Virus record (IMG/VR): IMGVR_UViG_3300042332_001215
Span: 22,307-86,306 of that record
Direction: 5' to 3' (one strand)
From: a virus
Length of the DNA: 64,000 nt
Under the pieces are notes generated by a model. That model made no database searches. It was not told where the DNA came from and was given only the letters and a program-made list of their open reading frames with translations. A program made the position numbers and the translations under genes. Positions 31,164 through 60,271 of this stretch are shown here, piece after piece; the stretch's first letter is position 1, and each line of letters starts with the position of its first letter.

Positions 31164-32492
31164 TTAGAATGTTTCTCTAGTTTCTACGGAAATAGGATTA
31201 ATTTCATTGCCACCAAAAGAATCTCTAGTTAATGTTGCAATGGTTCTCAATTCAGTTCTATTTAGGATAGTATGCCTAATAGAATGTACTAGATACTTTC
31301 CACTTATTCTTTTATCTTCAACAACTTTATTTGTTTTATCTCTCTTGGGAGATGGAATAGAAACATTAATAACATTACCTGCTCTCAGTTTCAGATCTCC
31401 AGGAATAGCAACCTCCAGTTTATTATACTCCAAGAAATAATATCTGTATATAGATTTTTCAAAAGTCTTATTTACTTCATCAATATTATTTAAACTTTCA
31501 ATTTGAGATGATGACATTGGCTTCCAATTAAAAGTAGAAATAGTAGTAGGTCGGTATACTAATCTGGATGGGTTCTTTAAAAGATCTTCATTTGGAAATG
31601 GAGTCATATTTCCGAGATGAGTCATATCCTTCCAGTAGGTAGATGCATTTGTATTCCAATTCTGATAATTTCTATTATTGATATCCACATATAAAGCATT
31701 ATGAGAGAATGCACCATTCCTCAAGTCTTCAAAAATATCAAATGCTTTTGTTGAAGAATAATCCATGATTCTATAATTGTTAGAATCAGATCCTGTAGAA
31801 CTAGTATTTCCCTGAATAAATGTATACTTTGTATTCTTGTTTGGATATGGAGTTGTATCAAAGAGAACATCTAAAGATTTAAAATTATATCCATCTAGAG
31901 TTTCATAGAAAAGATATCCAACAGAATCTTTATACTTTGTTGATACAGATCTTCTAGACATCCATATAGCAGTATCAAATAATCTCCAATTCGTAACATA
32001 CATATCGAATGGATGTAGAGTGCTATCAACTCTACCTTCAAAAGTTTTATCGCTGATTAATTCTAGTTTTTCTTTTAGAAAATCTTCTGCTTTCTTTCCA
32101 TCTATTCTCTCACGAATTCTGGTATGTTCATTTATCAAAGCTTCTTTACTTACAGCATGAATGACATAGACCTGATTTTTTTCTTTCATCACTCTACCAT
32201 CAATCTTGTAGATGTAGAAGTTTAAATTGTAGTCTGCATAAGAAGTTGATATAATTAATTGAATTCTTTCCTGTCCAATTATAGGCAACTCTCCAATAAT
32301 ATTATTTCCAATATCTTGAATTACTAACTGACAATATAAACTTGTAGAAATAATACTTTCATTGATTGTAACTTCTTGTACTAATTGTTTTATATCAATA
32401 AACTTTCTATTGCCCGCAAGACCACCTTCGTCTTTTACGGGATACAATTTTACTTCTTTGAGAGAAAAATCTCCAGCAAAAAATTGATTCAT
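31164..32492 (-). CDS. Baseplate hub/tail protein (gp27-like)
   Basis: INESI...IIGQERI, GYLFYETLDGYNFKSLD, IPGDLKLRAGNVINV..P...ISGKYLVHSIRH; adjacent to gp5. Confidence 0.7.
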   Translation of the reverse strand: MNQFFAGDFSLKEVKLYPVKDEGGLAGNRKFIDIKQLVQEVTINESIISTSLYCQLVIQDIGNNIIGELPIIGQERIQLIISTSYADYNLNFYIYKIDGRVMKEKNQVYVIHAVSKEALINEHTRIRERIDGKKAEDFLKEKLELISDKTFEGRVDSTLHPFDMYVTNWRLFDTAIWMSRRSVSTKYKDSVGYLFYETLDGYNFKSLDVLFDTTPYPNKNTKYTFIQGNTSSTGSDSNNYRIMDYSSTKAFDIFEDLRNGAFSHNALYVDINNRNYQNWNTNASTYWKDMTHLGNMTPFPNEDLLKNPSRLVYRPTTISTFNWKPMSSSQIESLNNIDEVNKTFEKSIYRYYFLEYNKLEVAIPGDLKLRAGNVINVSIPSPKRDKTNKVVEDKRISGKYLVHSIRHTILNRTELRTIATLTRDSFGGNEINPISVETRETF

Positions 32493-49876: not shown

Positions 49877-50113
49877 TTAATCCTCTTCGTCTTCTTCTTC
49901 GTCGTCTTCTTCAAAACGCACAGCAATTAATTCTTCGGTAATATAGTTTCCATTTTCATCATACATTTCTGGGTGAGCAGAATTAGTATGGTTTGAAACT
50001 GGATTGAAATATTCATTTGCGAACCATCCAAAAACCATTCCGATTAAAAAACTCAATCCTATCAATACAAATCCCACTGCAAAAACAGTAAGTAAAATTA
50101 GTAGATTCGCCAT
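49877..50113 (-). CDS. Small membrane protein
   Basis: Hydrophobic N-terminus, HPEMYDENG motif, acidic tail. Confidence 0.65.
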   Translation of the reverse strand: MANLLILLTVFAVGFVLIGLSFLIGMVFGWFANEYFNPVSNHTNSAHPEMYDENGNYITEELIAVRFEEDDEEEDEED

Positions 50114-50134
50114 TGTTCTTTTTCCTCTAGAGTG

Positions 50135-50293
50135 TTAGTCTTGGTGATCTTCTACGAAGATTTTAACTTCCACTCTGTAGTTTCTTTTGAAAATAGAAAC
50201 TATTTTATCGAAGTGGAAGTCAGGCTTTTTCAAGTCTTTTTTCCTCCCACTTATCATTGCTCTTACATTTTTATTTAGTAACTTTTCATTCAT
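50135..50293 (-). CDS. Small hypothetical protein (52 aa)
   Basis: Manually translated MNEKLLNKNVRAMISGRKK...HQD*; ATGA overlap with the upstream stop. Confidence 0.55.
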   Translation of the reverse strand: MNEKLLNKNVRAMISGRKKDLKKPDFHFDKIVSIFKRNYRVEVKIFVEDHQD

Positions 50294-50991
50294 GCAATAA
50301 CTTTGATTAGAATATGTTTGGAAGTCATTCTTCCTGATGGAGCCTTTGGTTTAGTAGTTAGATGAGTGCCAATAGATTCAGCATTAAACTTACTACAAGA
50401 AATAACCTCTGTCAAAAATTCTTCTGGTTTTCTCAGAGTACGAACCCAAGATTTTTCTGCATCAAACCCATCAACCATTGTACGACGAACTGTGAGAGAC
50501 CTACCAGTATAGTAACAAAGTTCCCTCTTTTCTACATTGTAGAGGAACACATGCTTTGCACCAATGATCTCTGTTGCAGGAAGAGGTTTGTAAGTTGTGT
50601 CTCCAAATGAAATTGACTTGTCATATAGAGTCACATATTTGACTAGCTTTTCAGGAGTAATCTTACGCCGCTTGCGAACAATCTTTTTGGAATCTTTATA
50701 TGCATAAAGATCATCAAGGATTTGATTTAATAATTCTTTGAAGTCACGAAGTTCAGGACGACGAAAATGAGAATACCCTTCTTTTACAACTTCATCTTGA
50801 TTGTTGAGAGCAATATCTATTTCTTCAATTTGCTCATTTACAAATCCAAGTTTAGTCTCAATAAAATTATTGATTGTCCTGCGGTCAATATCCTCAGACT
50901 TTAAAAACTGCATAAAGCTCGCTTTAGGTTTTTTGCGAGTAATTACAAAGTCATCAATAACGGAATCAATAAAAGCTGCAATTTCGCTCAT
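50290..50991 (-). CDS. Conserved T4-like phage hypothetical protein
   Basis: 233 aa; EGYSH, S..RTLRKPEEFL, SGRM....ILIKV motifs. Confidence 0.65.
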   Translation of the reverse strand: MSEIAAFIDSVIDDFVITRKKPKASFMQFLKSEDIDRRTINNFIETKLGFVNEQIEEIDIALNNQDEVVKEGYSHFRRPELRDFKELLNQILDDLYAYKDSKKIVRKRRKITPEKLVKYVTLYDKSISFGDTTYKPLPATEIIGAKHVFLYNVEKRELCYYTGRSLTVRRTMVDGFDAEKSWVRTLRKPEEFLTEVISCSKFNAESIGTHLTTKPKAPSGRMTSKHILIKVIA

Positions 50992-51224
50992 AGTAGATTC
51001 TGCTCCTTTAGATAAGCAATAGTTTCAGAAGATCCTCCAGTCAATTTACCATCAATGACCACTCGTGGAAATGTAGAGTTCTCTCCAAATTCAGAGATAA
51101 AATTCTCTCTCGTAAAATCATTGCCAAGGGTATACTCAATGAAATCTACATTAAGTAAATTGAATACTGTTTTAATTTTTTCGCAATAGGGACAATCCTC
51201 TTTACTGTAAATCGTAACCTGCAT
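50988..51224 (-). CDS. nrdC: Glutaredoxin
   Basis: IYSK..CPYC, TFPRV.IDG...GG. Confidence 0.92.
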   Translation of the reverse strand: MQVTIYSKEDCPYCEKIKTVFNLLNVDFIEYTLGNDFTRENFISEFGENSTFPRVVIDGKLTGGSSETIAYLKEQNLL

Positions 51225-51257
51225 AAGTGCCTTTGAATCGCTTTGGTATCATAGCAG

Positions 51258-51283
51258 AAAAAAGGGGGCCTGTCAAGGCCCCC
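51258..51283 (-). terminator. Rho-independent terminator overlapping the -35 of an early promoter
   Basis: GGGGCC-TTGACA-GGCCCC hairpin plus T run; the loop is the TTGACA box. Confidence 0.7.
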
Positions 51284-51289
51284 GTAGGA

Positions 51290-51448
51290 CTAAAATTTTT
51301 TGAACATCCACTTAAGCTTAATGTATCTTAATTGTAGATCTGTCCACAAATGTTTTACTTTAATGCTGATCCAATCTAATACATTTGGATCAATCACACA
51401 AACATAAGTAAATACCATTGCAAATAAAATAAAATATAGCTGCATCAT
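51290..51448 (-). CDS. Small hypothetical membrane protein
   Basis: Manually translated MMQLYFILFAMVFTYVCVIDPN...KKF*; overlaps the upstream stop. Confidence 0.5.
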   Translation of the reverse strand: MMQLYFILFAMVFTYVCVIDPNVLDWISIKVKHLWTDLQLRYIKLKWMFKKF

Positions 51449-51630
51449 TCTAGTGGATCATCTGTAGTTACATTTTCAGCATTATCAAAATACCCACTTT
51501 CAATTGCATCAGAAAGAAGTTGCTGTAATAAATTTTCTACAGAAACTCCTTTTTCTTTCGCAAGTGCCTCTGCGATTGCTGCAGTCTCATCATCTAGTTC
51601 AATTTGAAGTTCTTCAGTTTCAGTTGCCAT
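51445..51630 (-). CDS. Hypothetical protein (possible ribbon-helix-helix)
   Basis: LQIELDDET....EALAKEKGVSVENLLQQLL. Confidence 0.5.
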   Translation of the reverse strand: MATETEELQIELDDETAAIAEALAKEKGVSVENLLQQLLSDAIESGYFDNAENVTTDDPLE

Positions 51631-51632
51631 AG

Positions 51633-51833
51633 TTAATTAAAAGGTAAAGGTAGTTCATCATATCCTGGGGGATAATTATGCTCATCATTGTAGCATGGAT
51701 TTATACATGGAGAATCAACTTTTCGATATTGACATACTCTTTGTGCCAAGTAATTTAAATCTCCAGGTTTGCCAAAAGAAAATTTGGCCATTCCGTCTTC
51801 AATAATTACCCCACATGCAGGACATTTTTCCAT
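51633..51833 (-). CDS. Cys-rich hypothetical protein
   Basis: CPACG...FSFGKPG...L..RVCQY....CIN. Confidence 0.6.
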   Translation of the reverse strand: MEKCPACGVIIEDGMAKFSFGKPGDLNYLAQRVCQYRKVDSPCINPCYNDEHNYPPGYDELPLPFN

Positions 51834-51857
51834 ATCAACCTCAGTTTAAAGGTGATA

Positions 51858-52013
51858 CTATTTAGTCTCAGCTTGATATTTGTGTTTTAATTCATTGACA
51901 ATCATAATTGATTTTTTCAATCCAAGTGCATACTCATTGTGTCCATGCTTGACGGAAATTTGTATGCTGTGTTGAATTCGTTCACATAGTTCTTTGTAAA
52001 ATTGTTCATCCAT
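51858..52013 (-). CDS. Small hypothetical protein (51 aa)
   Basis: Manually translated MDEQFYKELCERIQHSIQ...AETK*. Confidence 0.5.
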   Translation of the reverse strand: MDEQFYKELCERIQHSIQISVKHGHNEYALGLKKSIMIVNELKHKYQAETK

Positions 52014-52030
52014 AATGTAATTGTGAACAA

Positions 52031-52117
52031 CGGAGGGAGGGGGAGTCGAACCCCCAAGGGCTTTAACACCTCAACTGTTTTCAAGACAGGTTCCGTCGCC
52101 AATCGGATTGCCCCTCC
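52031..52117 (-). tRNA. tRNA-Ser(TGA)
   Basis: GGAGGGG acceptor, anticodon loop CTTGAAA, long variable arm, T-loop TTCGACT, G discriminator. Confidence 0.92.
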
Positions 52118-52148
52118 AAAAAAGTAACCAAAGGTTACTTATTATATA

Positions 52149-52379
52149 TCAAGAATTTGATTGAGTCCTAGCGTCCATTTGCCTTACAGCATGAATAGGA
52201 CTCTTCATGTATCGTTTAATTTTCTTCAATTGTCTATTCAATTGTTTCAAATGTTCTAAATCTCGTTTGATCTCTGCAGGACTTTTAATCTTGTCTTCAT
52301 TCAAACTAATCTCTGGAGTTAGAACTGTTTCTTCTTCAACTACTTCAGTTGATTCAACATCAATAATTTGTTCTTCCAT
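52149..52379 (-). CDS. Hypothetical protein
   Basis: 76-aa ORF. Confidence 0.6.
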   Translation of the reverse strand: MEEQIIDVESTEVVEEETVLTPEISLNEDKIKSPAEIKRDLEHLKQLNRQLKKIKRYMKSPIHAVRQMDARTQSNS

Positions 52380-52382
52380 AAT

Positions 52383-52745
52383 TTAACTTCTTGTTTTTAA
52401 ATACTCTACTGCCTTATATAGGCCACTAAGATTATCTCCAAGATTTCCTAATCCAACATTACATGGATCGCAAATCCATCCACGAAACTTTCCAGTTTTA
52501 TGACAGTGATCAAGGACAATCTTTTTGTTATGTGGGGGTATCTTTCCACACAAATCACATACATCTGGTTTTGGTGGTGCAGTTTTTTTCAATTGATACC
52601 GAAGTTTACTTTGTTCACTAATACATGTTCTACACCTAGTATCATGCCTATCCTTATGTCCACGATGTCCAGGAAACTCAGATAGTTTTTTTGTTTCATT
52701 ACAATAGACACATGATTTAGTGTTTAGTTCATCAATAATCTCCAT
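52383..52745 (-). CDS. Free-standing endonuclease VII-family homing endonuclease (F-CphI-like), copy B
   Basis: CVYC...CRTC zinc finger plus CDLC...LDHCHKTGKFRGWICDPCNVGLG...D; start placed downstream of the early promoter at 52775-52802. Confidence 0.85.
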   Translation of the reverse strand: MEIIDELNTKSCVYCNETKKLSEFPGHRGHKDRHDTRCRTCISEQSKLRYQLKKTAPPKPDVCDLCGKIPPHNKKIVLDHCHKTGKFRGWICDPCNVGLGNLGDNLSGLYKAVEYLKTRS

Positions 52746-52810
52746 AGGCACCGGAGGCTTTGGTTGCTCTAGCATCATAGCATGGTTTTCAGGGCTTGTC
52801 AAGTCATGGA

Positions 52811-52836
52811 TAAAAAAAGAGACCCTTTCGGGTCCC
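52811..52836 (-). terminator. Rho-independent terminator after the stranded psbA 3' end
   Basis: GGGACCC-GAAA-GGGTCTC plus T run. Confidence 0.85.
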
Positions 52837-52857
52837 TGAAAACTTATAAAGTTTTTA

Positions 52858-52917
52858 TCAACCGATGGCTGGTGCAGTGAGAGCAACAGGAGTGCTGTCA
52901 GCAGCAGCTAGATCAAG
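52858..52917 (-). pseudogene. psbA: Stranded duplicate psbA 3' end ([19 protein letters not shown])
   Basis: 20 codons homologous to D1 residues 341-359; directly after the GIY-YIG gene stop and followed by its own terminator. Confidence 0.92.
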
Positions 52918-52930
52918 AAAAAAGTTCTTT

Positions 52931-53830
52931 TCAATTGTTAATTGAATAATAATTTGTTTGATCAAAATTATGTTTATTCAGTTTTTTAATTGCAATTAAA
53001 TTATTTTTCTCTAAAGTTTTAACCGCTCTATTTACTGTCTTTTCACTAATTTTACATTCTTCTTTAAAATCAGACATAGATATTCTCAAAAATTTATTAC
53101 CATTATACTCAATCAATTTTTCACTTTCACTTTCTATATTAGATTTAATATAATTAAAGAGAACTAATATAGATCTTTTAGATACCGATCCATTTCTGCT
53201 TTCTATTTTTACATCTATGTGATTATTATCACATTTATATTTTAATATAAAATCTTTTTTGATTAGTTCTATCTCATCACTTGTTTTTTTAGTTATATTG
53301 TAATAATACCACCCACAAGTAGTTGGAGTTTTTGAACCTCTTTGTTTCTTTTTTCTTATTGCTTCATATGGAATATTTTTACTCTTACAAAATTTATCAA
53401 ACCCATCATCAACAATATAAGATTCTCCAGTTATATTAACTACCAAATATTTTTTTAAGTTAGGATTTCCATTTTTCTCAATATATGTTTTCATTCTTTT
53501 GGATATATCTTTTTTTCTGGGTTCGGATAACTTAAATCCACTAAATCCTTCTCCTCCATTAGTAAGATTTAACAAGATACCATTATTAACATCCTTTCTT
53601 CCAAAAACAAAAATTAGATATTTTTCATTCTTAAAAGCGTCGTCTTCAGTAAGATTATCTTTCAATATAAGAACTCTATTTTTGGGAGGAACTGGAACCG
53701 AATGTTTCCCATAAAATGCCCTATGATATTTTCTATAATTTTTATTTTTAGATAATTTATGTTTTCCTTTTCCAATATAATAAGGTGTTCCATTTTCACG
53801 AAGATATGCATAAGTATAAAAATCATTCAT
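52931..53830 (-). CDS. Free-standing GIY-YIG-type (Seg-like) homing endonuclease with C-terminal winged-helix domain
   Basis: FYTYAYLRENGTPYYIGKG...R...E..LI..FGRK....G.L.NLTNGGEG; C-terminal HTH ISEKTVNRAVKTLEKNNLI; strongly AT-rich. Confidence 0.8.
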   Translation of the reverse strand: MNDFYTYAYLRENGTPYYIGKGKHKLSKNKNYRKYHRAFYGKHSVPVPPKNRVLILKDNLTEDDAFKNEKYLIFVFGRKDVNNGILLNLTNGGEGFSGFKLSEPRKKDISKRMKTYIEKNGNPNLKKYLVVNITGESYIVDDGFDKFCKSKNIPYEAIRKKKQRGSKTPTTCGWYYYNITKKTSDEIELIKKDFILKYKCDNNHIDVKIESRNGSVSKRSILVLFNYIKSNIESESEKLIEYNGNKFLRISMSDFKEECKISEKTVNRAVKTLEKNNLIAIKKLNKHNFDQTNYYSINN

Positions 53831-54251
53831 AATTTTTCAAATACTCAATCATTTTTTCAAGGGTGTTAATATTATCCCCAACAAGACCTAAAGCAGTATT
53901 GCAGTGGTGACATAGAAGTTTTCTTACTTTACCTGTGGTGTGGCAGTGATCAACACATAACTTCTTCCACTTACCATTTCCTTCATTATTGCAAATAGCA
54001 CATCGACCATTTTGTTCCTCGTACATTTTAGTGTGCTCATCCAGAGTTATGCCATATATTCTCTTTAAATCATTATTTTTGGTGCGTTCTGGATTTGCTT
54101 GATGTCGTGCCTTTACCCTTGCTTTATCACACTCTTTGCAGGCAGAATGTCTTCTACCAGTTTTTTTATCCCGTATATAAAACTCTATGATCTGTTTTTC
54201 AATCCCACAGGTCATACAAATTCTATACAAATCGGAGTATAGTTTAGTCAT
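53823..54251 (-). CDS. Free-standing endonuclease VII-family homing endonuclease (F-CphI-like), copy A
   Basis: CMTC...CKEC, LKR.YGIT...Y..Q..RCAIC...LCVDHCHTTGKVRKLLCHHCNTALG...D; immediately downstream of psbA. Confidence 0.9.
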   Translation of the reverse strand: MTKLYSDLYRICMTCGIEKQIIEFYIRDKKTGRRHSACKECDKARVKARHQANPERTKNNDLKRIYGITLDEHTKMYEEQNGRCAICNNEGNGKWKKLCVDHCHTTGKVRKLLCHHCNTALGLVGDNINTLEKMIEYLKNYE

Positions 54252-54275
54252 TTCATGCTTTCTTTCGTGCTTAAT

Positions 54276-54283
54276 TATTTATA
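54276..54283 (-). promoter_or_regulatory. T4-type late promoter for the EndoVII/GIY-YIG cassette
   Basis: TATAAATA immediately after the psbA terminator. Confidence 0.75.
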
Positions 54284-54311
54284 AAAAAAAGAAACTCCGA
54301 AGAGTTTCTTT
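54283..54311 (-). terminator. psbA terminator
   Basis: AAAGAAACTC-TTCG-GAGTTTCTTT plus T run. Confidence 0.85.
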
Positions 54312-54317
54312 GGTGAA

Positions 54318-56330
54318 TTAACCGATTGCGGGAGCAGTGAGAGCAACAGGAGTTGCTTCTACGCTAGCAAGGTCAAGAGGGAAATTATGGGCATTCTTTT
54401 AACCCTCTTGAAATCTGGTATTGCTACCAGGATTGGACTATATCATCACCATTTCTGGTGTCGGAAGCTCTAGCCTGTTATTAAGGAAACTTTATTCCTC
54501 AGGTAGTCTCTGAACCTTTCCAGAGTGTACTCTGGACTTGGCTGCTGATTGCCCTCTTGGGGTTTCCAGCAATTCATCCGATTTAAAGAGCGCAACACCC
54601 AAATCTACGCTCATGCATAACTTCCATACCCAGACCACCACGATTCAGAATGTCTGCCCATGTATTAATTACATGACCCTGACTATCTTGAATTGATTGG
54701 TTGAAGTTGAAGCCGTTCAGGTTGAACGCCATGGTTGACACGCCCAGAGCAGTGAACCAAATACCGACAACAGGCCAAGCTGCCAAGAAAAAGTGAAGAC
54801 TACGAGAGTTATTAAAACTAGCGTACTGAAAAATAAGGCGGCCAAAATATCCATGAGCAGCTACAATGTTGTAGGTTTCTTCTTCTTGTCCAAACTTGTA
54901 TCCGTAGTTCTGGGACTCATTTTCTGTCGTCTCACGAACAAGACTAGAGGTGACGAGAGATCCGTGCATAGCAGAGAAAAGAGAACCACCGAAGACACCA
55001 GCAACTCCCAGCATATGGAAAGGGTGCATAAGAATGTTGTGTTCCGCCTGGAAAACAAGCATGTAGTTGAAAGTTCCTGAAATCCCCAGAGGCATTGCAT
55101 CAGAGAAGGATCCTTGACCGAAGGGATAGACCAGGAAAACTGCACTAGCAGCAGCAACGGGTGCAGAGTAGGCAACACAAATCCAAGGACGCATACCCAG
55201 TCGGTAAGATAGTTCCCATTCACGACCCATGTAGGCATAGATACCAATTAGAAAGTGGAAGACGACCAATTGAAATGGTCCACCATTATATAGCCACTCA
55301 TCGAGAGAAGCAGCTTCCCAAATAGGATAGAAGTGCAGACCGATAGCATTGCTAGAAGGAACAACAGCACCAGAGATGATGTTGTTTCCATACATTAGAG
55401 AACCAGCAACTGGTTCTCGGATCCCGTCTCTTATCCCAGTAAAACAGTCATATCTTGCGACTTAGACCGTTTCAGTTGACCTATTTGATTTGCTCGTTTT
55501 GCGTTTTCTACTCTTCCACCATTTTCTACCCACTCTTTCCACTCATTAATATAAGAAATACATTCTTTAATTCTTTCACTTCTTCTATTTCCCATATGGG
55601 GAAGTATTTTTTCCAAAATGAAAAGAACTTTTTCTCTATTTCCTATATGAAGGACATAGACTGGTTTTCCTTTGAGTGTTTTTCTATTGGGTACAAAATA
55701 GGGTTTGTCTACAAAATTACTTAGTTTAGCAACCACATCTTCATCAGTCATAACAAGACGAATATATGGTGCTGGTGGTGCTTTAGAAGAGTCATAACGG
55801 TCTTTAGAACGATTATCTATTCCAAAGTATCCTTCACCTTCTAAAATTCCCGCAATCCAAGTAATTTGTGATTCCGTTAAATCGAGCATTTTGTTTTCGC
55901 ACCTACTGTTATATTTATACAACAAGTGCGAATAAAAGTCAACTGTGAGATTTGGACTATATCTTCACCCTTTAATTAGATTAAAGGGGCTGGGCACTCT
56001 AGCCTGTTATTAAGGGGACTAAACCCCTCAGGTAGTCTCTGAACCTTTCCAAAGTGTACTTTGGACTTGGCTGCTGATTGCCTTTCGGTTTCCAGCAATT
56101 CACCCAGTTTTAACATCATCCTTACGGATGAAGGACACAGATTAAAGCAGTATGTCTACGGGAGGAGCAGCAATGAAAGCAACAATGAAACAAATAGTAG
56201 CAGCGAGAAGGGTTGGAATCATTAGAGTTCCGAACCAACCGACATAAAGACGATTATCGGTAGAAGTTACCCACTCACAGAATTGTTCCCAAGTGTTACT
56301 TCCACGCTGTTGAGCGATGGATGCGGTCAT
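54318..56330 (-). CDS. psbA: Photosystem II D1 protein, 3 exons: 56330-56152, 55429-54607, 54395-54318 (359 aa after splicing)
   Basis: Exons of 179+823+78 nt join in frame: PPVDI|DGIREP and MHER|[10 protein letters not shown]; canonical D1 sequence with Glu130. Confidence 0.97.
54396..54606 (-). mobile_element. Group I intron 2 of psbA (211 nt, ORF-less), between codons 334 and 335
   Basis: Exon ends in U; P1 GAGCGU/GCGCUC with a U.G pair; P AATTGCTGGAAA, Q AATCAGCAGCC, R GTTCAGAGACTA, S GATATAGTCC; terminal G. Confidence 0.93.
55431..55889 (-). CDS. Intron-encoded single-motif LAGLIDADG homing endonuclease
   Basis: [14 protein letters not shown] (LAGLIDADG helix), I.L.MTDEDVV; located 3' of the S element; stop codon is 1 nt before the omega-G. 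Confidence 0.85.
55896..55932 (-). promoter_or_regulatory. Late promoter inside an RBS-sequestering hairpin for the intron ORF
   Basis: TTCGCACTT-GTTGTA-TAAA-TATAAC..AGGTGCGAA; TATAAATA at 55912-55919 forms the apex, and AGGTG lies in the 3' arm. Confidence 0.7.
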
Positions 56331-56394
56331 AGTTTTAAAAGTTCGTAAGGTTTATGAAAACATATGTTAAGGAATGTTTCGATTCCTTAACACT

Positions 56395-56428
56395 TATTTA
56401 TAGTAGCACAGGTTGCAAAGCTTGTCAA
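56395..56428 (-). promoter_or_regulatory. Overlapping early (sigma70) and late promoters of psbA
   Basis: TTGACA-N17-TACTAT with TG extension, running into TATAAATA (56395-56402). Confidence 0.8.
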
Positions 56429-56462
56429 GGGGTCTTTGAATAAATACTTATAAATTGTTCTT

Positions 56463-56660
56463 ATGGACGAGAGAAGAACATTTAACACTCCTATTAGGGA
56501 ACCTTGGAATGCACCTATTCATAATATATTAAAAGCTATAGATAATCATACAAGACAATATTTGAAAACTGAAGATCCTTGGCATGAAGAGAAAGCTAAT
56601 ATGTTAAGAGAATATCTACACGAATTAAAAACCTGGATACACAAAGAAGAAAATGAATGA
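56463..56660 (+). CDS. Hypothetical protein
   Basis: 65 aa, REPWNAPIH..LKAIDNH...WH..KA..LR.Y..ELK.WI. Confidence 0.65.
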   Translation: MDERRTFNTPIREPWNAPIHNILKAIDNHTRQYLKTEDPWHEEKANMLREYLHELKTWIHKEENE

Positions 56661-56778
56661 CTTTCCATGGGGAGTTTCAATAGGACTCGGAATAATACTA
56701 TTGGGCACATTAAGTTTTTTAATCTACATTATGATGTTAGATCACTTAGAAGGCAATGACAAAAACAATACTCATTGA
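56653..56778 (+). CDS. Small membrane protein (41 aa)
   Basis: MNDFPWGVSIGLGIILLGTLSFLIYIMMLD...; one hydrophobic helix. Confidence 0.5.
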   Translation: MNDFPWGVSIGLGIILLGTLSFLIYIMMLDHLEGNDKNNTH

Positions 56779-56923
56779 GTTGTTGATCATAGCTAGATTA
56801 TTAACTAATGATGGAATGATGCTGGAAAATAGAAGACCTCAACCGAAAAGACAATCGGTTGAGGTTCTTCGTTTTATTCGTAGACCAGCTAAAAAAGGCA
56901 GAAAATTATTTAAGTTTACCTAA
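56756..56923 (+). CDS. Small basic hypothetical protein (55 aa)
   Basis: MTKTILIELLIIARLLTNDG..LENRRP.PKRQ...FIRRPAKKGRK. Confidence 0.5.
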   Translation: MTKTILIELLIIARLLTNDGMMLENRRPQPKRQSVEVLRFIRRPAKKGRKLFKFT

Positions 56924-57538
56924 TCCATTTTCCCATAAAGAACCCTCTGCTCGCCTTCTTCTAGCTAATCCTTTCTCTACAGATGATCCTGGATTACGAT
57001 AACGATAAAGTGCTTCTGGAACAAGATGCCAAGATTTATCTTTTAATACTTTGGTAATGGTATTAAACCCATCTGATCCATAAAAATTTGCACCAAGATT
57101 ATATGCAAATGAAAGTAGTGCTCCTCTCATTTCTTCATTCATTTCATTCCAATATGGAATCTTGGTTAGTGGAGGAAGAAACTGATTCCTAGCTTGATAC
57201 TCAAGTAATTCATCTGCCTGTAATTGAGTAATCTTATCAGTGATCTTAAATGGCTTTCCATTCATATCTCTGGTACTTCCCCATCCGATGGTAATTGGAA
57301 GTCCACCAGTATGAGGATCATAATATGCACTCAATTTACATCCTTCAAATTCTTTGATTAAATCCAATCCACATGTTGGAACTATAGATGGGTTGGATAT
57401 TTTATATTCGTTTCTAAATCTTTTAGCAAATTCTTCTAGTACATTGGAAGGAATATTTTTTTGAAGGTATTCCCAAGCATCCATTTGATGCATATATCCT
57501 TTTGTATGTGTAGCAGCATCAATGAGTTTTATAGTCAT
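56906..57538 (-). CDS. Phage lysozyme (GH24 endolysin)
   Basis: LIKEFEGC.L.AY.DP.....TIGWGST (E/D/T triad), ALLSFAYNLG, GL.RRR.AE..LW. Confidence 0.9.
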   Translation of the reverse strand: MTIKLIDAATHTKGYMHQMDAWEYLQKNIPSNVLEEFAKRFRNEYKISNPSIVPTCGLDLIKEFEGCKLSAYYDPHTGGLPITIGWGSTRDMNGKPFKITDKITQLQADELLEYQARNQFLPPLTKIPYWNEMNEEMRGALLSFAYNLGANFYGSDGFNTITKVLKDKSWHLVPEALYRYRNPGSSVEKGLARRRRAEGSLWENGLGKLK

Positions 57539-57563
57539 AAAAAAAGGAGGTATTGAACCTCCT
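57539..57563 (-). terminator. Terminator after the hli-petF-hli unit
   Basis: AGGAGGT-TCAAT-ACCTCCT plus T run. Confidence 0.7.
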
Positions 57564-57582
57564 GTATTTAGGAATTAATAAT

Positions 57583-57702
57583 TCACCAAACTCCTGGAAT
57601 AATCTGCCCAGTAGTGAGATAGGTTCCGACTGCGACTACGAAACCAAGCATAGCGAGGCGACCATTAAGTGTTTCTGCCTCAGGTGTCCATCCAAATTTC
57701 AT
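57583..57702 (-). CDS. hli: High-light-inducible protein (39 aa)
   Basis: Manually translated MKFGWTPEAETLNGRLAMLGFV.....Y.TTGQIIPGVW (ExxNGRxAMxG). Confidence 0.93.
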   Translation of the reverse strand: MKFGWTPEAETLNGRLAMLGFVVAVGTYLTTGQIIPGVW

Positions 57703-57719
57703 TTTGTTTCTCCTAGTAA

Positions 57720-58010
57720 TTAAAGGTTTTCTTCTTGTTCAGTTAGAATTACACAATCAGATTTAGGATATGCTACACAAGTGAGCACCCATCCATCTGC
57801 TAGTTGATCATCATCAAGGAACGATTGTTCCTCATTATCAACTTCACCTTGAATCAGTTTACCAGCACAAGCAGAACAGGCACCAGCACGACATGATGAA
57901 GGAAGATCTACTCCTGCTTCCTCAGCAGCTTCAAGGATGTATTGATCCTCAGCACACTGAATAGTTTGTTCAGTTCCATCAGGGGAACGAAGAGTAATTT
58001 GATAAGTCAT
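57720..58010 (-). CDS. petF: Plant-type [2Fe-2S] ferredoxin
   Basis: [16 protein letters not shown]...QSFLDDDQ...[10 protein letters not shown]. Confidence 0.96.
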
Positions 58011-58096
58011 TAGTAAGTTTCAGATAATTGATTTACAGCGTATGCCAACAGTACAAAGAAGGCAACACTAGTAATTGTAAACAGAAGTTCAGTCAT
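58010..58096 (-). CDS. Small single-helix membrane peptide (28 aa)
   Basis: [33 protein letters not shown]-coupled to petF. Confidence 0.6.
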
Positions 58097-58109
58097 TGTC
58101 AATTATTTG

Positions 58110-58304
58110 TCAGAAGATCCCGAAAAAGAACTTGCCAGTGCCAATATAAGAAATGAACCCAGCAATAATACCGACCATTGCCCAGCGCCCATTGTACTTC
58201 TCCTTTACTTGATTTGGAGTATCCATTCCGTAATTTTCATAATACATTACAGGTTCTTTGGCAAACATATTTTGTTGGCCGAACTCATTAGATGTTACAG
58301 TCAT
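58110..58304 (-). CDS. hli: High-light-inducible protein
   Basis: NE.GQQNMFAKEP N-terminus; EKYNGRWAMVG; TGKFFFGIF; start at MTVTSNE. Confidence 0.92.
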   Translation of the reverse strand: MTVTSNEFGQQNMFAKEPVMYYENYGMDTPNQVKEKYNGRWAMVGIIAGFISYIGTGKFFFGIF

Positions 58305-58310
58305 TTTGTT

Positions 58311-58328
58311 GTTACAAATTGTTACAAT
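58311..58328. promoter_or_regulatory. HLR1 (RpaB-binding) direct repeat over the hli transcription start
   Basis: GTTACAAA-TT-GTTACAAT is a perfect (G/T)TTACA(T/A)(T/A)-N2 repeat, abutting the -10 of TTGACA-N17-TATAAT (58329-58357). Confidence 0.75.
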
Positions 58329-58375
58329 ATTATATATGAAAAAGGGGGTTTTGTCAACCCCCAATTGTCAGAAAA

Positions 58376-59257
58376 TCAGAACTTGAATCCCAGACCCGTG
58401 GTGAACACAGGAGAATAGGTTCCGTTGGTAGCACCATAGCTGTTAGCAGCATTGGTGGTAGGGAACTTGAGATCAGCAAAACCAACTAGTGAATTGGTTA
58501 GACGACCTTCAATGCCTAGAGCAAGTACAACCTGACCCTTCTCACCAACAGCAGACTGGAAATTAGCAGCAGTGTTGTTCACGAAAGGAATCTGATAACC
58601 AACACCAGTGTAGATGTTAGCACGACTCACACCAGAAGCAGCCTTAGCGATACTCCAGTCATAGGCAACTAGAGCACCACCTGCAGCACCAATCTCACCA
58701 GCAGGAGTGCCTACTAGGTTAGCATAGGGACGAACAGAAACAGCATTCTGATTAGCAAAGGTCTTTACAGCATAACGACCTTGAACAGTAGCACCAGAGA
58801 TAGTACGGTTCTCAGTGTAACCATTACCATCAACGCCTTGCTTGTTTAGAAGAACACCGGCACCTAGGTAGTTACCTACACCCTGAGCCTTTTGAGCAGC
58901 AGCTACTTCTAGTGCAGTTACACGGGCATTAGTAGCACCGAGTTCCTTAGCAAATTCTGCACGAAGAGCAGCAGCTAGTTGTGCATCTGCAGCAGTTTGG
59001 AATTCGCTGATACGATCCAGACATGCATTAGTGAGTGCAGCAAGTTGAGCACGAGTAGCAGGTTCACCAGGACGGAAAGTGCCATCAGGGAAACCAGCAA
59101 CACAACCATAACGGGATACTAGGTTAGAGATAGCCTGATATGACCACTCGGTTGGTTGAACATCACGCAGTTGTGAAACACTGGTGACTTGTGCCATGGC
59201 AGGAGAGATTGCAGTTGCAGCAACAACACCAGCAGCAATAAATGAACGAATCATCAT
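58376..59257 (-). CDS. SLH-domain outer-membrane protein related to cyanobacterial porins
   Basis: Signal peptide; QVTSVSQLRDVQPTEWSYQA...LVSRYGCVAGFPDGTFR....TR...AA..NACLDRI is the cyanobacterial porin SLH N-terminus; coiled coil; beta strands; terminal Phe. Confidence 0.85.
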   Translation of the reverse strand: MMIRSFIAAGVVAATAISPAMAQVTSVSQLRDVQPTEWSYQAISNLVSRYGCVAGFPDGTFRPGEPATRAQLAALTNACLDRISEFQTAADAQLAAALRAEFAKELGATNARVTALEVAAAQKAQGVGNYLGAGVLLNKQGVDGNGYTENRTISGATVQGRYAVKTFANQNAVSVRPYANLVGTPAGEIGAAGGALVAYDWSIAKAASGVSRANIYTGVGYQIPFVNNTAANFQSAVGEKGQVVLALGIEGRLTNSLVGFADLKFPTTNAANSYGATNGTYSPVFTTGLGFKF

Positions 59258-59293
59258 AATTTTAAATGATTAACTACAGATTTTATTTATATT

Positions 59294-59364
59294 TGGGAAG
59301 TGGTTGGAATCGAACCAACTACTGTGTGGATTGTCTCCGTGCCGATCCAGTTGGCCTCACTTCC
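59294..59364 (-). ncRNA. tRNA-like RNA with non-canonical anticodon arm
   Basis: Perfect 7-bp acceptor GGAAGTG/CACTTCC, D-arm GCC/GGC, T-arm GTTGG-TTCGATT-CCAAC; the anticodon region forms only GGA-GACAA-TCC; has its own promoter at 59375-59403. Confidence 0.65.
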
Positions 59365-59412
59365 ATGAAATCCTACTATAGCAGGAGTTGTGGGGGTTGT
59401 CAACCCCCCTTT

Positions 59413-59573
59413 GCAGGCTCGCCACCAGTTTTGATTACGAGAAAACTGGAAACTCGGCAGAGTAAAAAACTCCTCATCCGCACCAGTCGGCATATTTTAT
59501 GTCCATCCGACGAGGACTAAATTGGGTCATACTTGACTCCACCAGGGCAAATTTTTAAGTCATTCCGAGACTT
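59413..59573 (-). ncRNA. Structured RNA, probably manA-motif-like
   Basis: GTCTCGG..GAC..AAAA..GCCCTGGT / CTGGTGCGGATG / GTGGCGAGCCT pattern, recalled from the cyanophage manA RNA motif; three stem-plus-pseudoknot-like modules each ending CTGGT. Confidence 0.6.
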
Positions 59574-59757
59574 TCATATCATTGTATATTTGCCAAATAT
59601 ACTTTTTATGTTCTTCAAGTTTGTCAATTGTTTCTTGAATTTTGATATAATTTTTCAAGTCCATACGGTCTTGAATTTGTTTAAGTGTAGTTATTACACA
59701 TTGAATTTCACTAGAAACATTTTGAAGTTTTAAAGAACAGTATTCGTTGTTATCCAT
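59560..59757 (-). CDS. Hypothetical coiled-coil protein (65 aa) between two RNA-module copies
   Basis: ORF track; its stop codon lies inside the downstream RNA module. Confidence 0.5.
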   Translation of the reverse strand: MDNNEYCSLKLQNVSSEIQCVITTLKQIQDRMDLKNYIKIQETIDKLEEHKKYIWQIYNDMKVSE

Positions 59758-59764
59758 TTGTTTA

Positions 59765-59813
59765 AAGGGGGTTGCTCCCGACCAGGGCAGAGTTTAAAGT
59801 CTACTCCGAGACT
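59765..59813 (-). repeat. Extra copy of the first RNA module
   Basis: AGTCTCGGAGTAGACTTTAAACTCTGCCCTGGT versus AGTCTCGGAATGACTTAAAAATTTGCCCTGGT (59541-59572). Confidence 0.8.
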
Positions 59814-59818
59814 AATCA

Positions 59819-60271
59819 TCAAGGTTCTAGAATTGTTTCGTCAGAAACTTCTTCTTCTTCAATTACTGGAGTAGGCTCTACTACTTCGGGTTCAGTAGTA
59901 GCATTTGTAACTAACCAGCTAACAGATACTCTATCTTCTTCTTGAAGTGCATCAATTCTATTTTGAATGTTTTCAACAGAATATTTTACATATGAAAATT
60001 CATCTACTGATTCAACACCTTCTTTTGTAAGTAGCCAACCAAGAACTGTTTCTTGAGTGATTTCGTCAAAAGGAATAAATGCATCTTCATCAATTTCAGA
60101 AATATCAAATGAAATATTTCCACCACAACTATAGGTAAATTGTGGATACTCTTCAGAAGATGCGTTTACAGAAACTGCAACTTCATATACTACATTGTTT
60201 AGGTTTCCTACTGATAGCTTTCTTCCAAGACTACCAATAGTTAGATTGTAATTAATTGCCATACTGATCAA
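59819..60271 (-). CDS. Hypothetical acidic phage protein
   Basis: L.NVV..V...FIPFDEITQETVLGWL motif, frequent in aquatic phages. Confidence 0.6.
   Translation of the reverse strand: MISMAINYNLTIGSLGRKLSVGNLNNVVYEVAVSVNASSEEYPQFTYSCGGNISFDISEIDEDAFIPFDEITQETVLGWLLTKEGVESVDEFSYVKYSVENIQNRIDALQEEDRVSVSWLVTNATTEPEVVEPTPVIEEEEVSDETILEP

What the first reader, a model, noticed from the sequence alone, without database searches (positions are those of the whole stretch)
55430..56151. LAGLIDADG-encoding group I intron at psbA nt 179 in a phage
Seen: a complete group I core, U.G P1, omega-G, and in-frame restoration of Ile60-Asp61. A single-motif LAGLIDADG ORF ([10 protein letters not shown]) lies 3' of the S element and stops 1 nt before the 3' splice site. 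Known: phage group I introns usually carry GIY-YIG or HNH enzymes, while LAGLIDADG intron ORFs are typical of organelles, archaea and some bacterial rRNA introns. The characterised cyanophage psbA intron is at codon 334. I recall site 179 being occupied in some green-algal chloroplast psbA genes, but this needs verification. Inference: a second intron site in viral psbA, possibly linking phage and plastid intron pools.
Basis: partly seen in the sequence, partly recalled or inferred. Interest (0 to 1): 0.8.

Follow-up and report, generated by a model that had tools for sequence, protein, structure and literature searches.

The report
Mobile LAGLIDADG intron in phage psbA
The photosynthesis gene psbA of this uncultured freshwater cyanophage is split after base 179 by a self-splicing group I intron that encodes its own I-CreI-like DNA-cutting enzyme, and the same selfish element sits at the same spot in green-algal chloroplast psbA, so it is an ordinary kind of element in an unusual host.

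Summary
Observation confirmed. On the minus strand, psbA is split by a 722-nt group I intron (56151..55430) after CDS nt 179 and by a 211-nt intron (54606..54396) after nt 1002. Removing both gives an intact 359-aa D1. Intron 1 scores 85.5 bits against Rfam RF00028 and has a U.G pair at the 5' splice site and a terminal G. P10, P9 and P9.0 show compensatory changes across 22 related phage loci.

Its 152-aa ORF (55889..55431) lies in loop L9. It misses Pfam's LAGLIDADG cut-off, but its model matches I-CvuI, I-CreI and I-MsoI, and it models as a homodimer.

The same intron is in at least 27 IMG/VR contigs. Twelve more carry it without an ORF, and one carries the nuclease gene free-standing beside an intronless psbA. 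It is absent from all 50,697 GenBank phage records. Intron and exon similarities are discordant, which indicates mobility.

Green-algal chloroplasts have the positional twin (Oedogonium Oc.psbA.1, Ulva psbA-179). The ORF is 34% identical to a Stephanosphaera chloroplast protein, and 25 of 27 plastid contigs place that ORF family at site 179.

This scan has reported the same element before on other genomes. It is a new member of a known kind. Splicing and cleavage are untested.

The parts
56152..56330 (-). psbA exon 1 (CDS nt 1-179, Met1 to the first two bases of Ile60)
   Evidence: Translation and exon joining. tblastn gives 100% identity to L001.
55430..56151 (-). Group I intron 1 (722 nt), inserted after psbA nt 179
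   Evidence: RF00028 at 85.5 bits, full length. The boundaries follow the U|...G| rule and restore the reading frame.
56134..56141 (-). Internal guide sequence UCU-GUGUC. GUGUC pairs with exon 1 GACAU (P1, U.G at the splice site). UCU pairs with exon 2 AGA (P10).
   Evidence: P10 covaries: AGA/UCU in the window clade against CGA/UCG in the other 18 loci.
55932..56161 (-). Ribozyme core P1-P9 as matched by Rfam
   Evidence: alignment. The core is 86-95% identical to the site-179 cores of other phage contigs.
55946..55951 (-). 5' strand of the P9.0-like helix (AUCUCA), just 3' of P7
   Evidence: It pairs with UGGGAU at 55433-55438. Other loci use CAUCUA/UAGAUG, and L011 uses CAUUUA/UAAAUG.
55938..55945 (-). 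P9 5' strand (CAGUUGAC)
   Evidence: A perfect 8-bp complement of 55473-55480. Four helix variants carry compensatory double changes: CUGUUGAC/GUCAACAG, CUUUUGAC/GUCAAAAG and CUGUUGAU/AUCAACAG.
55896..55932 (-). Hairpin UUCGCAC...GUGCGAA with the invariant motif TATAAATA (55912-55919) in its loop, 6 nt upstream of the ORF start
   Evidence: TATAAATA is invariant in all 22 loci and also in the free-standing copy in L025. The stem covaries in three different sequences. A role as a T4-late-type promoter is inferred, not shown.
55431..55889 (-). Single-motif LAGLIDADG homing endonuclease ORF (152 aa plus TAA), located in L9
   Evidence: AlphaFold2 model with pLDDT 86. Foldseek top matches are I-CvuI, I-CreI, I-MsoI and I-CeuI at probability 1.00. 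There are 54 homologue clusters, some carrying PF14528. The homodimer model scores 0.78 against 0.20 for the best control.
55473..55480 (-). P9 3' strand (GUCAACUG), inside the ORF (codons for G-Q-L)
55433..55438 (-). 3' strand of the P9.0-like helix (UGGGAU), overlapping the last sense codons and the first base of the stop codon
   Evidence: ORF-less copies of the intron keep this 3' segment.
54607..55429 (-). psbA exon 2 (CDS nt 180-1002)
54396..54606 (-). ORF-less group I intron 2 (211 nt) after nt 1002 (Arg334/Asn335), the S-PM2 site
   Evidence: RF00028 at 81.3 bits. Boundaries. S-PM2 aligns to its core.
54318..54395 (-). psbA exon 3 (CDS nt 1003-1080, including the stop codon)
53823..54251 (-). 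Free-standing Endonuclease VII-type ORF directly downstream of psbA (F-CphI-like). It is context for intron 2 and not part of intron 1.
   Evidence: Pfam PF02945 at 1.5e-25. phrog_2633 at 8e-41. The arrangement matches S-PM2 (PMC6083498).

Best explanation
This is a mobile group I intron of the psbA-179 family, resident in a phage.

How it most likely works:
- The psbA pre-mRNA carries 722 extra bases after nt 179.
- The ribozyme folds. Its guide sequence pairs with the last five exon bases (GACAU/GUGUC, U.G at the cut) and with the first three bases of exon 2 (AGA/UCU).
- The intron then excises itself, so an intact D1 protein can be made.
- Loop L9 holds a 152-aa single-motif LAGLIDADG gene.
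- Its product most likely forms an I-CreI-like homodimer. This dimer would cut intron-less psbA alleles of co-infecting phages at the near-palindromic sequence CCCGUAGAC|AUMGACGGG, which spans the insertion site.
- Recombinational repair from the intron-bearing genome would then copy the intron, and some flanking exon, into the cut allele (homing).
- The intron's presence destroys the target, which protects the carrier.
- The ORF has its own conserved upstream TATAAATA motif inside a covarying hairpin. This probably gives it late, separate expression, as for T4 intron endonucleases.

Shown here: the anatomy, RNA covariation, the protein fold, the spread among phages, and homology to chloroplast copies.

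Inferred: splicing in vivo, nuclease activity, the target sequence, and the promoter role.
For: - Ribozyme: full-length RF00028 match at 85.5 bits. The boundaries obey U|...G| and restore a complete 359-aa D1.
- RNA covariation across 22 phage loci: P10 is A-U or C-G and is linked to the synonymous third base of Ile60. P9 has four helix variants with compensatory double changes. The P9.0-like helix has three variants.
- Protein fold: pLDDT 86, and Foldseek top hits I-CvuI, I-CreI and I-MsoI at probability 1.00 with TM about 0.55-0.61.
- Protein family: the profile search finds 5198 relatives, including two-domain proteins. The motif IAGILEGEG keeps the acidic residue that aligns by motif register with I-CreI D20; this acidic residue is invariant in 19 homologues.
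- Dimer: the homodimer model scores 0.78, with 0.20 for the best of 3 controls. That mark was reached by 20 of 30 proteins solved as homodimers and by 1 of 23 solved as single chains. The runs agree in 100% of contacts, partner pLDDT is at least 81, and the interface is residues 7-20, the LAGLIDADG helix. This pass may reflect likeness to solved I-CreI dimers.
- Target: the spliced junction is a pseudo-palindrome centred 2 nt upstream of the insertion site. It has 6 of 9 symmetric pairs in the window allele and 7 of 9 in the common allele. The mean over the gene is 2.1, and only 6 of 1062 centres reach 6.
- Mobility, by discordance: L002 shares a 96.5% identical intron but only 72% identical distal exon 1. 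L009 has 94-97% identical exons but a 76% identical intron.
- Mobility, by alternative states: ORF-containing copies (713-784 nt), ORF-less copies (251-322 nt) and a free-standing gene all exist.
- Same element in plastids.
Against: - No direct evidence of splicing was obtained. Metatranscriptome contigs cover the intron only thinly, and the one exon1-exon2 junction contig differs in the adjoining 13 bases, so it comes from another psbA.
- Pfam's LAGLIDADG models do not reach their cut-offs.
- Nuclease activity and the target site are untested.
- The P10 covariation may reflect a single evolutionary event.
- The phage may not be T4-like. A tail protein is only 25% identical to any cultured phage, so reading TATAAATA as a T4-type late promoter is uncertain.
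Confidence: 0.85

Rival explanations
1. The intron splices, but the LAGLIDADG protein is no longer (or not only) a homing nuclease. It acts mainly as a maturase that helps the ribozyme fold, or it is a decaying passenger.
For: Some LAGLIDADG proteins are maturases; the Thermotoga neapolitana 23S intron protein is cited in PMC3984707. The ORF's last roughly 15 codons are ribozyme structural sequence that ORF-less copies also retain, so protein and RNA are tightly interlocked. ORF-less copies exist, and some algal copies carry internal stop codons.
Against: The catalytic acidic residue and the whole motif are invariant across 19 phage homologues at 59-93% identity. Discordance between intron and exon similarity, and near-identical introns in divergent psbA genes, argue for recent DNA-level mobility. 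ORF-less copies show that the ribozyme does not need the protein to persist. The target is a near-palindrome, which suits a homodimeric nuclease.
Confidence: 0.1
2. The insertion is a dead or non-splicing element, so this psbA copy is a pseudogene.
For: There is no direct splicing evidence.
Against: The ribozyme core is complete and four pairings show compensatory changes. The exons remain intact and highly conserved in more than 27 independent contigs. A synonymous exon base covaries with the guide sequence.
Confidence: 0.03
3. The locus is a metagenome assembly chimera that joins phage psbA to algal chloroplast intron DNA.
For: The closest named ORF relative is from a chloroplast.
Against: The phage ORFs form their own tight clade (SH-aLRT 99), apart from the plastid copies. 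The same junctions recur in at least 27 IMG/VR contigs from many samples and in 14 DNA runs from different studies. The exons are phage or cyanobacterial type, not plastid type. Phage structural genes lie on the same contig.
Confidence: 0.01

Closest known systems
Green-algal chloroplast psbA site-179 introns: Oedogonium cardiacum Oc.psbA.1 (PMC2442088) and Ulva psbA-179 (PMC10151680)
   Same: - Same host gene and the same insertion site (after nt 179).
- A single-motif LAGLIDADG ORF in L9 (Oedogonium, 184 codons).
- Similar total size (Ulva 695 bp against 713-784 nt in phages).
- Homologous ORFs: 34% identity to a Stephanosphaera chloroplast protein, and that family lies at D1 residues 60/61 in 25 of 27 plastid contigs.
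- Very similar P1-P2 sequence (...UAAUCGGUGUCC...CGUAAG).
- Cores are 81-87% identical over aligned positions.
   Different: - The host is a phage genome, not a plastid.
- The phage ORFs are a separate, shallow clade.
- The phage copies carry a conserved TATAAATA hairpin ahead of the ORF.
- Most plastid introns are longer (1020-1321 nt).
- The core tree does not resolve phage-179 plus alga-179 as a clade.
- I could not fetch the Oedogonium or Ulva sequences themselves.
S-PM2 psbA intron with free-standing F-CphI (collaborative homing; Zeng 2009; PMC6083498)
   Same: A group I intron in cyanophage psbA. The same arrangement (an ORF-less intron at nt 1002 plus a downstream Endonuclease VII gene) is also present in this window at 54396-54606 and 53823-54251.
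   Different: Intron 1 sits at a different site (179 against 1002). It carries its own nuclease, and that nuclease belongs to a different family (LAGLIDADG against Endo VII).
Synechococcus phage S-CBWM1 psbA introns (MG450654; Xu 2018, as cited in PMC8557907)
   Same: A cultured cyanophage whose psbA has two annotated group I introns, the first of which encodes a homing endonuclease.
   Different: The sites are near 645 and 1008, not 179. Its 211-aa ORF has no Pfam match and no similarity to this family.
I-CreI, I-CvuI and I-MsoI (homodimeric LAGLIDADG homing endonucleases of green-algal chloroplast 23S rRNA introns)
   Same: Same fold and size, one LAGLIDADG motif, and a predicted dimer through the motif helix. 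Each is encoded in a group I intron.
   Different: Only 10-18% sequence identity. The target is a protein-coding gene rather than rRNA. There is an extra C-terminal helical tail that is encoded partly by ribozyme sequence.
T4 td intron and I-TevI (intron endonuclease expressed from its own late promoter within a hairpin)
   Same: A TATAAATA motif in the loop of a hairpin directly upstream of the intron ORF.
   Different: The nuclease family differs (GIY-YIG in T4). Promoter use is not shown here, and the phage is distant from T4-like isolates.

Membership tests
Group I intron (Rfam RF00028) | Match to the covariance model above the gathering score, over its full length | tested here: met
   85.5 bits against a gathering score of 50, model positions 1-253, not truncated.
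Group I intron (Rfam RF00028) | 5' exon ends in U paired with G in P1, the intron ends in G, and P10 pairs with the 3' exon | tested here: met
   P1 is GACAU/GUGUC, the terminal base is G at 55430, and P10 is AGA/UCU, with a compensatory CGA/UCG in 18 other loci.
Group I intron (Rfam RF00028) | Self-splicing with ligated exons | not testable with these tools
   Metatranscriptome contigs gave no junction specific to this phage.
LAGLIDADG homing endonucleases (single-motif, homodimeric) | Pfam LAGLIDADG_1/_3 at the curated cut-off | tested here: not met
   PF00961 gives 14.8 bits against a cut-off of 23.1. Six of the 54 homologue clusters carry a precomputed PF14528 hit.
LAGLIDADG homing endonucleases (single-motif, homodimeric) | The alpha-beta-beta-alpha-beta-beta-alpha fold, with the motif helix at the N-terminus | tested here: met
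   The AlphaFold2 model has pLDDT 86. Foldseek matches I-CvuI, I-CreI, I-MsoI, I-CeuI and I-TnaI at probability 1.00 and E as low as 3e-6.
LAGLIDADG homing endonucleases (single-motif, homodimeric) | A conserved acidic catalytic residue at the end of the motif | tested here: met
   In IAGILEGEG the second E is invariant in 19 sequences. It aligns by motif register with I-AniI in the profile search.
LAGLIDADG homing endonucleases (single-motif, homodimeric) | Homodimer formed through the LAGLIDADG helices | tested here: inconclusive
   The model supports it: score 0.78 against 0.20 for the best of 3 controls. That mark was reached by 20 of 30 proteins solved as homodimers and 1 of 23 solved as single chains. 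Contact agreement is 100% and pLDDT is at least 81. The pass may reflect memory of I-CreI-like structures.
LAGLIDADG homing endonucleases (single-motif, homodimeric) | Site-specific double-strand cleavage of the intron-less allele | not testable with these tools
   Only indirect support is available: the junction is a near-palindrome and intron and exon similarities are discordant.
psbA-179 intron family (Oc.psbA.1 type) | Insertion immediately after psbA nt 179 | tested here: met
   Exon 1 is exactly 179 nt. Oedogonium and Ulva list site 179.
psbA-179 intron family (Oc.psbA.1 type) | A single-motif LAGLIDADG ORF located in L9 | tested here: met
   The ORF is enclosed by the covarying 8-bp P9 helix. 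Oc.psbA.1 has its ORF in L9, LAGLIDADG (1).
psbA-179 intron family (Oc.psbA.1 type) | The ORF is homologous to the chloroplast site-179 ORFs | tested here: met
   34% identity over 144 aa, E 3e-27, to the Stephanosphaera chloroplast protein. In 25 of 27 contigs the ORF family lies directly downstream of, or between, psbA exons that break at D1 residues 60/61; the D1 is plastid-type in the 10 contigs checked. The Oedogonium and Ulva ORFs themselves could not be retrieved.
psbA-179 intron family (Oc.psbA.1 type) | Same ribozyme subgroup (IA1 in Oedogonium; 'derived B1' in Ulva by RNAweasel) | not tested
   No subgroup classifier was available. The cores are 81-87% identical to plastid site-179 cores, but the tree is unresolved.

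The most novel reading that the evidence does not exclude
Cyanophages and green-algal chloroplasts draw on one shared, still-active pool of mobile psbA introns. The sharing covers site 179 and several other sites: phage contigs carry introns at about 276, 548, 645, 750 and about 890-894, which match or lie close to chlorophyte sites. These elements would have crossed between viruses of cyanobacteria and eukaryotic organelles by lateral transfer, rather than descending from the cyanobacterial ancestor of plastids. Phages would then be a reservoir or vector for organellar introns.
Probability: 0.45. Interest if true: 0.75.

Novelty: new member of a known kind. Interest (0 to 1): 0.55.

Why it matters
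Viral psbA is a widely used marker and an important auxiliary gene in aquatic photosynthesis. Unrecognised introns split it in gene calls, so it is annotated as 'partial psbA'. They also distort PCR- and read-based diversity surveys.

LAGLIDADG enzymes are rarely found in phage introns. Here a whole natural series is available for studying how nucleases and introns associate: ORF-containing, ORF-less and free-standing copies in phages, plus chloroplast homologues.

The shared site and homologous nuclease in phages and green-algal plastids make one question directly testable: have mobile introns moved between viruses of cyanobacteria and organelles?

The enzyme would also be a new I-CreI-like nuclease with a defined candidate 18-22 bp target.

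Tried and rejected
- The genomic context of homologues P0057-P0072, which lie between the phage and algal clades in the tree, could therefore not be read. Scans of viral contigs with P0059 and P0069 found nothing, and alignment A4 was too diverse to scan.
- **RNA evidence.** Four metatranscriptome runs were laid on the region. Exon depth is dominated by other organisms' psbA. The intron is covered only thinly (0 to about 100x by bin and run; one run, X16, covers almost none of it); in one estuarine run the intron contigs are 100% identical. The only joint across intron 1 (55416 to 56152) has 13 different letters between its two sides, so it comes from an intron-less psbA of another organism. 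It is not evidence of splicing here. RNA libraries may also contain DNA.
- **Prokaryote genomes.** A pattern scan of 185,579 species genomes with the family alignment found no relative. Only two peptide patterns were used, so this argues weakly against close copies in cyanobacterial genomes and proves nothing about distant ones.
- **Phage collection.** tblastn of P0018 and P0073 against the phage collection gave no match. tblastn of the window ORF found only relatives below 60% identity, mostly free-standing 'LAGLIDADG endonuclease' genes of actinophages and Synechococcus phage ACG-2014f, where the gene lies next to gp24 and not in an intron.
- **Ribozyme core tree.** Phage site-179 cores group together (SH-aLRT 91) inside a phage psbA-intron clade, and the algal site-179 cores are unresolved at the base. 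The sequences are too short and too conserved to decide RNA-level orthology or the direction of transfer.
- **Sister introns.** I considered that the 81% identity between the window's two intron cores shows recent duplication. I rejected this as unsupported, because most identical stretches are the universally conserved core elements, and other sites' cores are equally similar.
- **Phage lineage.** A Pfam Gp23 search of the contig was uninformative, because nothing matched even in the control genomes. A T4-like classification is therefore not asserted.
- **Papers not held.** The Millard 2004 paper (PMC503734) could not be read.
Full report
**1. What is in the sequence**

psbA lies on the minus strand. 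Exon 1 runs 56330..56152 (179 nt) and ends ...CCC GUA GAC AU. A 722-nt insert follows (56151..55430). Exon 2 begins A GAC GGG AUC (55429). A second insert of 211 nt (54606..54396) follows CDS nt 1002. Removing both gives a 1080-nt reading frame for a complete 359-aa D1, with ...PPVDI-DGIREP... and ...MHER-NAHNF... restored.

Rfam's group I model matches both inserts over its full length: 85.5 bits at 55932-56161 and 81.3 bits at 54414-54656, against a gathering score of 50.

The contig is an IMG/VR virus record of 86 kb with phage tail genes nearby. It is distant from cultured phages: a tail protein is only 25% identical to its best match in the phage collection. DNA runs that hold the region are lake and other freshwater metagenomes from many studies.

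**2. The RNA is under selection as a ribozyme**

I extracted the site-179 intron from 21 IMG/VR loci plus the window.

- **P1.** GACAU/GUGUC in all of them.
- **P10.** AGA/UCU in the window's clade and CGA/UCG in the rest. The synonymous third base of the Ile60 codon therefore changes together with the guide sequence.
- **P9.** An 8-bp helix, CAGUUGAC (55945..55938) with GUCAACUG (55480..55473), encloses the ORF. It occurs in four versions with compensatory double changes: CUGUUGAC/GUCAACAG, CUUUUGAC/GUCAAAAG and CUGUUGAU/AUCAACAG. The ORF is therefore in L9.
- **P9.0-like helix.** A 6-bp helix joins the bases just after P7 to the bases just before the terminal G. It is AUCUCA/UGGGAU here, CAUCUA/UAGAUG elsewhere, and CAUUUA/UAAAUG in L011.
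- **Hairpin ahead of the ORF.** Directly upstream of the ORF is a hairpin whose stem has three different, self-complementary sequences and whose loop is the invariant motif TATAAATA. This resembles the late-promoter hairpins ahead of T4 intron endonuclease genes. That comparison rests on established knowledge of T4, and promoter use is not shown here.

**3. The ORF is a LAGLIDADG protein**

The conserved start is the ATG at 55889, giving 152 aa.

- Pfam's LAGLIDADG_1 model scores below its cut-off, 14.8 against 23.1 bits.
- An AlphaFold2 model (pLDDT 86, pTM 0.76) has the expected helix-strand order.
- Its best PDB matches are the homodimeric single-motif enzymes I-CvuI, I-CreI, I-MsoI, I-CeuI and I-TnaI, at probability 1.00 and TM 0.5-0.6.
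- A profile of 19 homologues finds 5198 relatives, including many two-domain proteins. It aligns the motif with I-AniI.
- In IAGILEGEG the acidic residue that corresponds by motif register to I-CreI D20 is invariant.
- A two-copy model scores 0.78, with 0.20 for the best of three controls. That mark was reached by 20 of 30 proteins solved as homodimers and by 1 of 23 solved as single chains. Contact agreement is 100%, pLDDT is at least 81, and the interface is residues 7-20. This may reflect likeness to solved I-CreI dimers.
- The spliced junction CCCGUAGAC|AUAGACGGG is a near-palindrome centred 2 nt upstream of the insertion site. It has 6 of 9 symmetric pairs here and 7 of 9 in the common allele. 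The gene-wide mean is 2.1, and only 6 of 1062 centres reach 6. This suits a homodimeric enzyme.

**4. It is mobile and widespread in uncultured phages**

- No record among 50,697 GenBank phage records has the intron. tblastn finds no copy of the ORF at 60% identity or more.
- IMG/VR holds 28 contigs with a 60-100% identical ORF. In 27 the ORF lies between D1 residues 60 and 61.
- Twelve further contigs carry the same intron without an ORF, at 251-322 nt. These retain the 3' 45 nt that in the long form encode the protein's C-terminus.
- In L025 the gene stands free, with its TATAAATA motif, 95 nt downstream of an intron-less psbA whose site-179 region is diverged. In the ORF tree this copy nests within intron-borne copies.
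- Similarity is discordant. L002 has a 96.5% identical intron but only 72% identical distal exon 1. L009 has 94-97% identical exons but a 76% identical intron.

**5. Comparison with what is known**

- **Chloroplast positional twins.** Oedogonium cardiacum chloroplast psbA has Oc.psbA.1 at site 179: subgroup IA1, ORF in L9, one LAGLIDADG motif, 184 codons (PMC2442088). Ulva has a 695-bp psbA-179 intron with a single-motif LAGLIDADG ORF (PMC10151680).
- **Named ORF relative.** The nearest named relative of the phage ORF is a Stephanosphaera pluvialis chloroplast LAGLIDADG. It is 34% identical over 144 aa, including the C-terminal W-x-GGR-x-x-AK-x-AN region.
- **Plastid contigs.** Scanning metagenome contigs with that protein's family returned 27 loci. 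In 25 of them the ORF lies directly downstream of, or between, psbA exons that break at D1 residues 60/61; L065 has the ORF match downstream of an exon ending at residue 60, and L055 is less clear. For the 10 loci whose exon 1 I translated the D1 is plastid-type (MTAILERRE...). In eight loci where I examined the junctions, the boundary is GACAU|...G|CGA and the guide sequence is GGUGUC. Several loci have further introns at residues 92/93, 128/129 and 175/176, which correspond to sites 276, 384 and 525.
- **ORF tree.** The phage ORFs form a tight clade (SH-aLRT 99), separate from a much more diverse plastid group.
- **Ribozyme cores.** They are 81-87% identical between phage and plastid site-179 introns. 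The core tree does not resolve their relationship.
- **Published phage psbA introns.** These are the ORF-less S-PM2 intron at nt 1002 with free-standing F-CphI (PMC6083498), an arrangement also present in this window, and the two S-CBWM1 introns near sites 645 and 1008, one of which has an unrelated endonuclease ORF.
- **LAGLIDADG in phage introns.** A 2014 review states that LAGLIDADG enzymes are typical of organelles, bacteria and archaea, whereas phage introns mostly carry GIY-YIG, HNH and related enzymes (PMC3984707). One LAGLIDADG ORF in a Bastillevirinae intron was reported in 2025 (PMC11878797).
- **Literature searches.** Four full-text searches found no paper describing a site-179 or LAGLIDADG intron in viral psbA. 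Subscription journals are largely outside that library.

**6. Verdict**

Mechanistically this is an ordinary mobile group I intron. What is new is its host and its kinship. It is a phage member of a chloroplast intron family, common in uncultured cyanophages and absent from isolates.

Earlier reports of this scan reached the same reading on other genomes. This window is therefore another instance, not a first sighting. It adds the P9, P10 and P9.0 covariation, the ORF-less and free-standing forms, and the discordance test.

Splicing, cleavage and the direction of phage-plastid transfer remain untested.

Noticed in passing
L003, L014, L022, L024, L026 (IMG/VR loci): Uncultured cyanophage psbA genes carry three to six group I introns in a row. 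The sites are 230, about 276, about 317-321, 499, 548, 645, 750, about 890-894, 992, 1002 and 1008. Sites 548 and 645 match Oedogonium chloroplast sites exactly and 750 matches Ulva psbA-750; about 276 and about 890-894 lie close to Oedogonium 276 and 898.
   Followed up: partly
L025:3005-3483: A homologue of the LAGLIDADG gene stands free, with the same TATAAATA motif, 95 nt downstream of an intron-less psbA. That psbA is diverged at site 179 (GGAGTAGACAT|TGATGGT, Pro57 to Gly). This may be an intron-less homing arrangement.
   Followed up: partly
L068, L069, L071, L076, L077, L081, L086, L087, L089, L090, L091, L096: ORF-less versions (251-322 nt) of the same site-179 intron. The P9 hairpin is closed by a short loop, and the 3' 45 nt that encode the protein's C-terminus in the long form are retained.
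   Followed up: partly
window 53823-54251 (-) and 52931-53830 (-): Directly downstream of psbA is an Endonuclease VII-type ORF (F-CphI-like, Pfam 1.5e-25). It overlaps by 8 nt a 299-aa ORF with a GIY...YIG-like N-terminal motif (YAYL...PYYIGKG) and a C-terminal winged-helix domain. psbA is thus flanked or invaded by up to three nuclease families.
   Followed up: partly
window 52032-52117 (-): Rfam tRNA-Sec match at 49 bits (gathering score 47). The same match lies downstream of psbA in L009. It may be a phage tRNA with a long variable arm.
   Followed up: no
window 59411-59519 (-): wcaG RNA motif (RF01761) at 49.7 bits, above its gathering score of 42.
   Followed up: no
window 4927-13026 (-) and 13585-27498 (-): Two giant ORFs of 2699 and 4637 aa. 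A neighbouring tail protein (31164-32492) is only 25% identical to its best match in the phage collection (S-H38), so this phage lineage is far from cultured cyanophages.
   Followed up: no
L001-L026, about 200 nt upstream of psbA: The PhotoRC-II RNA motif (RF01717) precedes psbA in most related IMG/VR loci (40-82 bits). It was not reported upstream of psbA in the window in the 50000-60000 scan at E up to 1.
   Followed up: no
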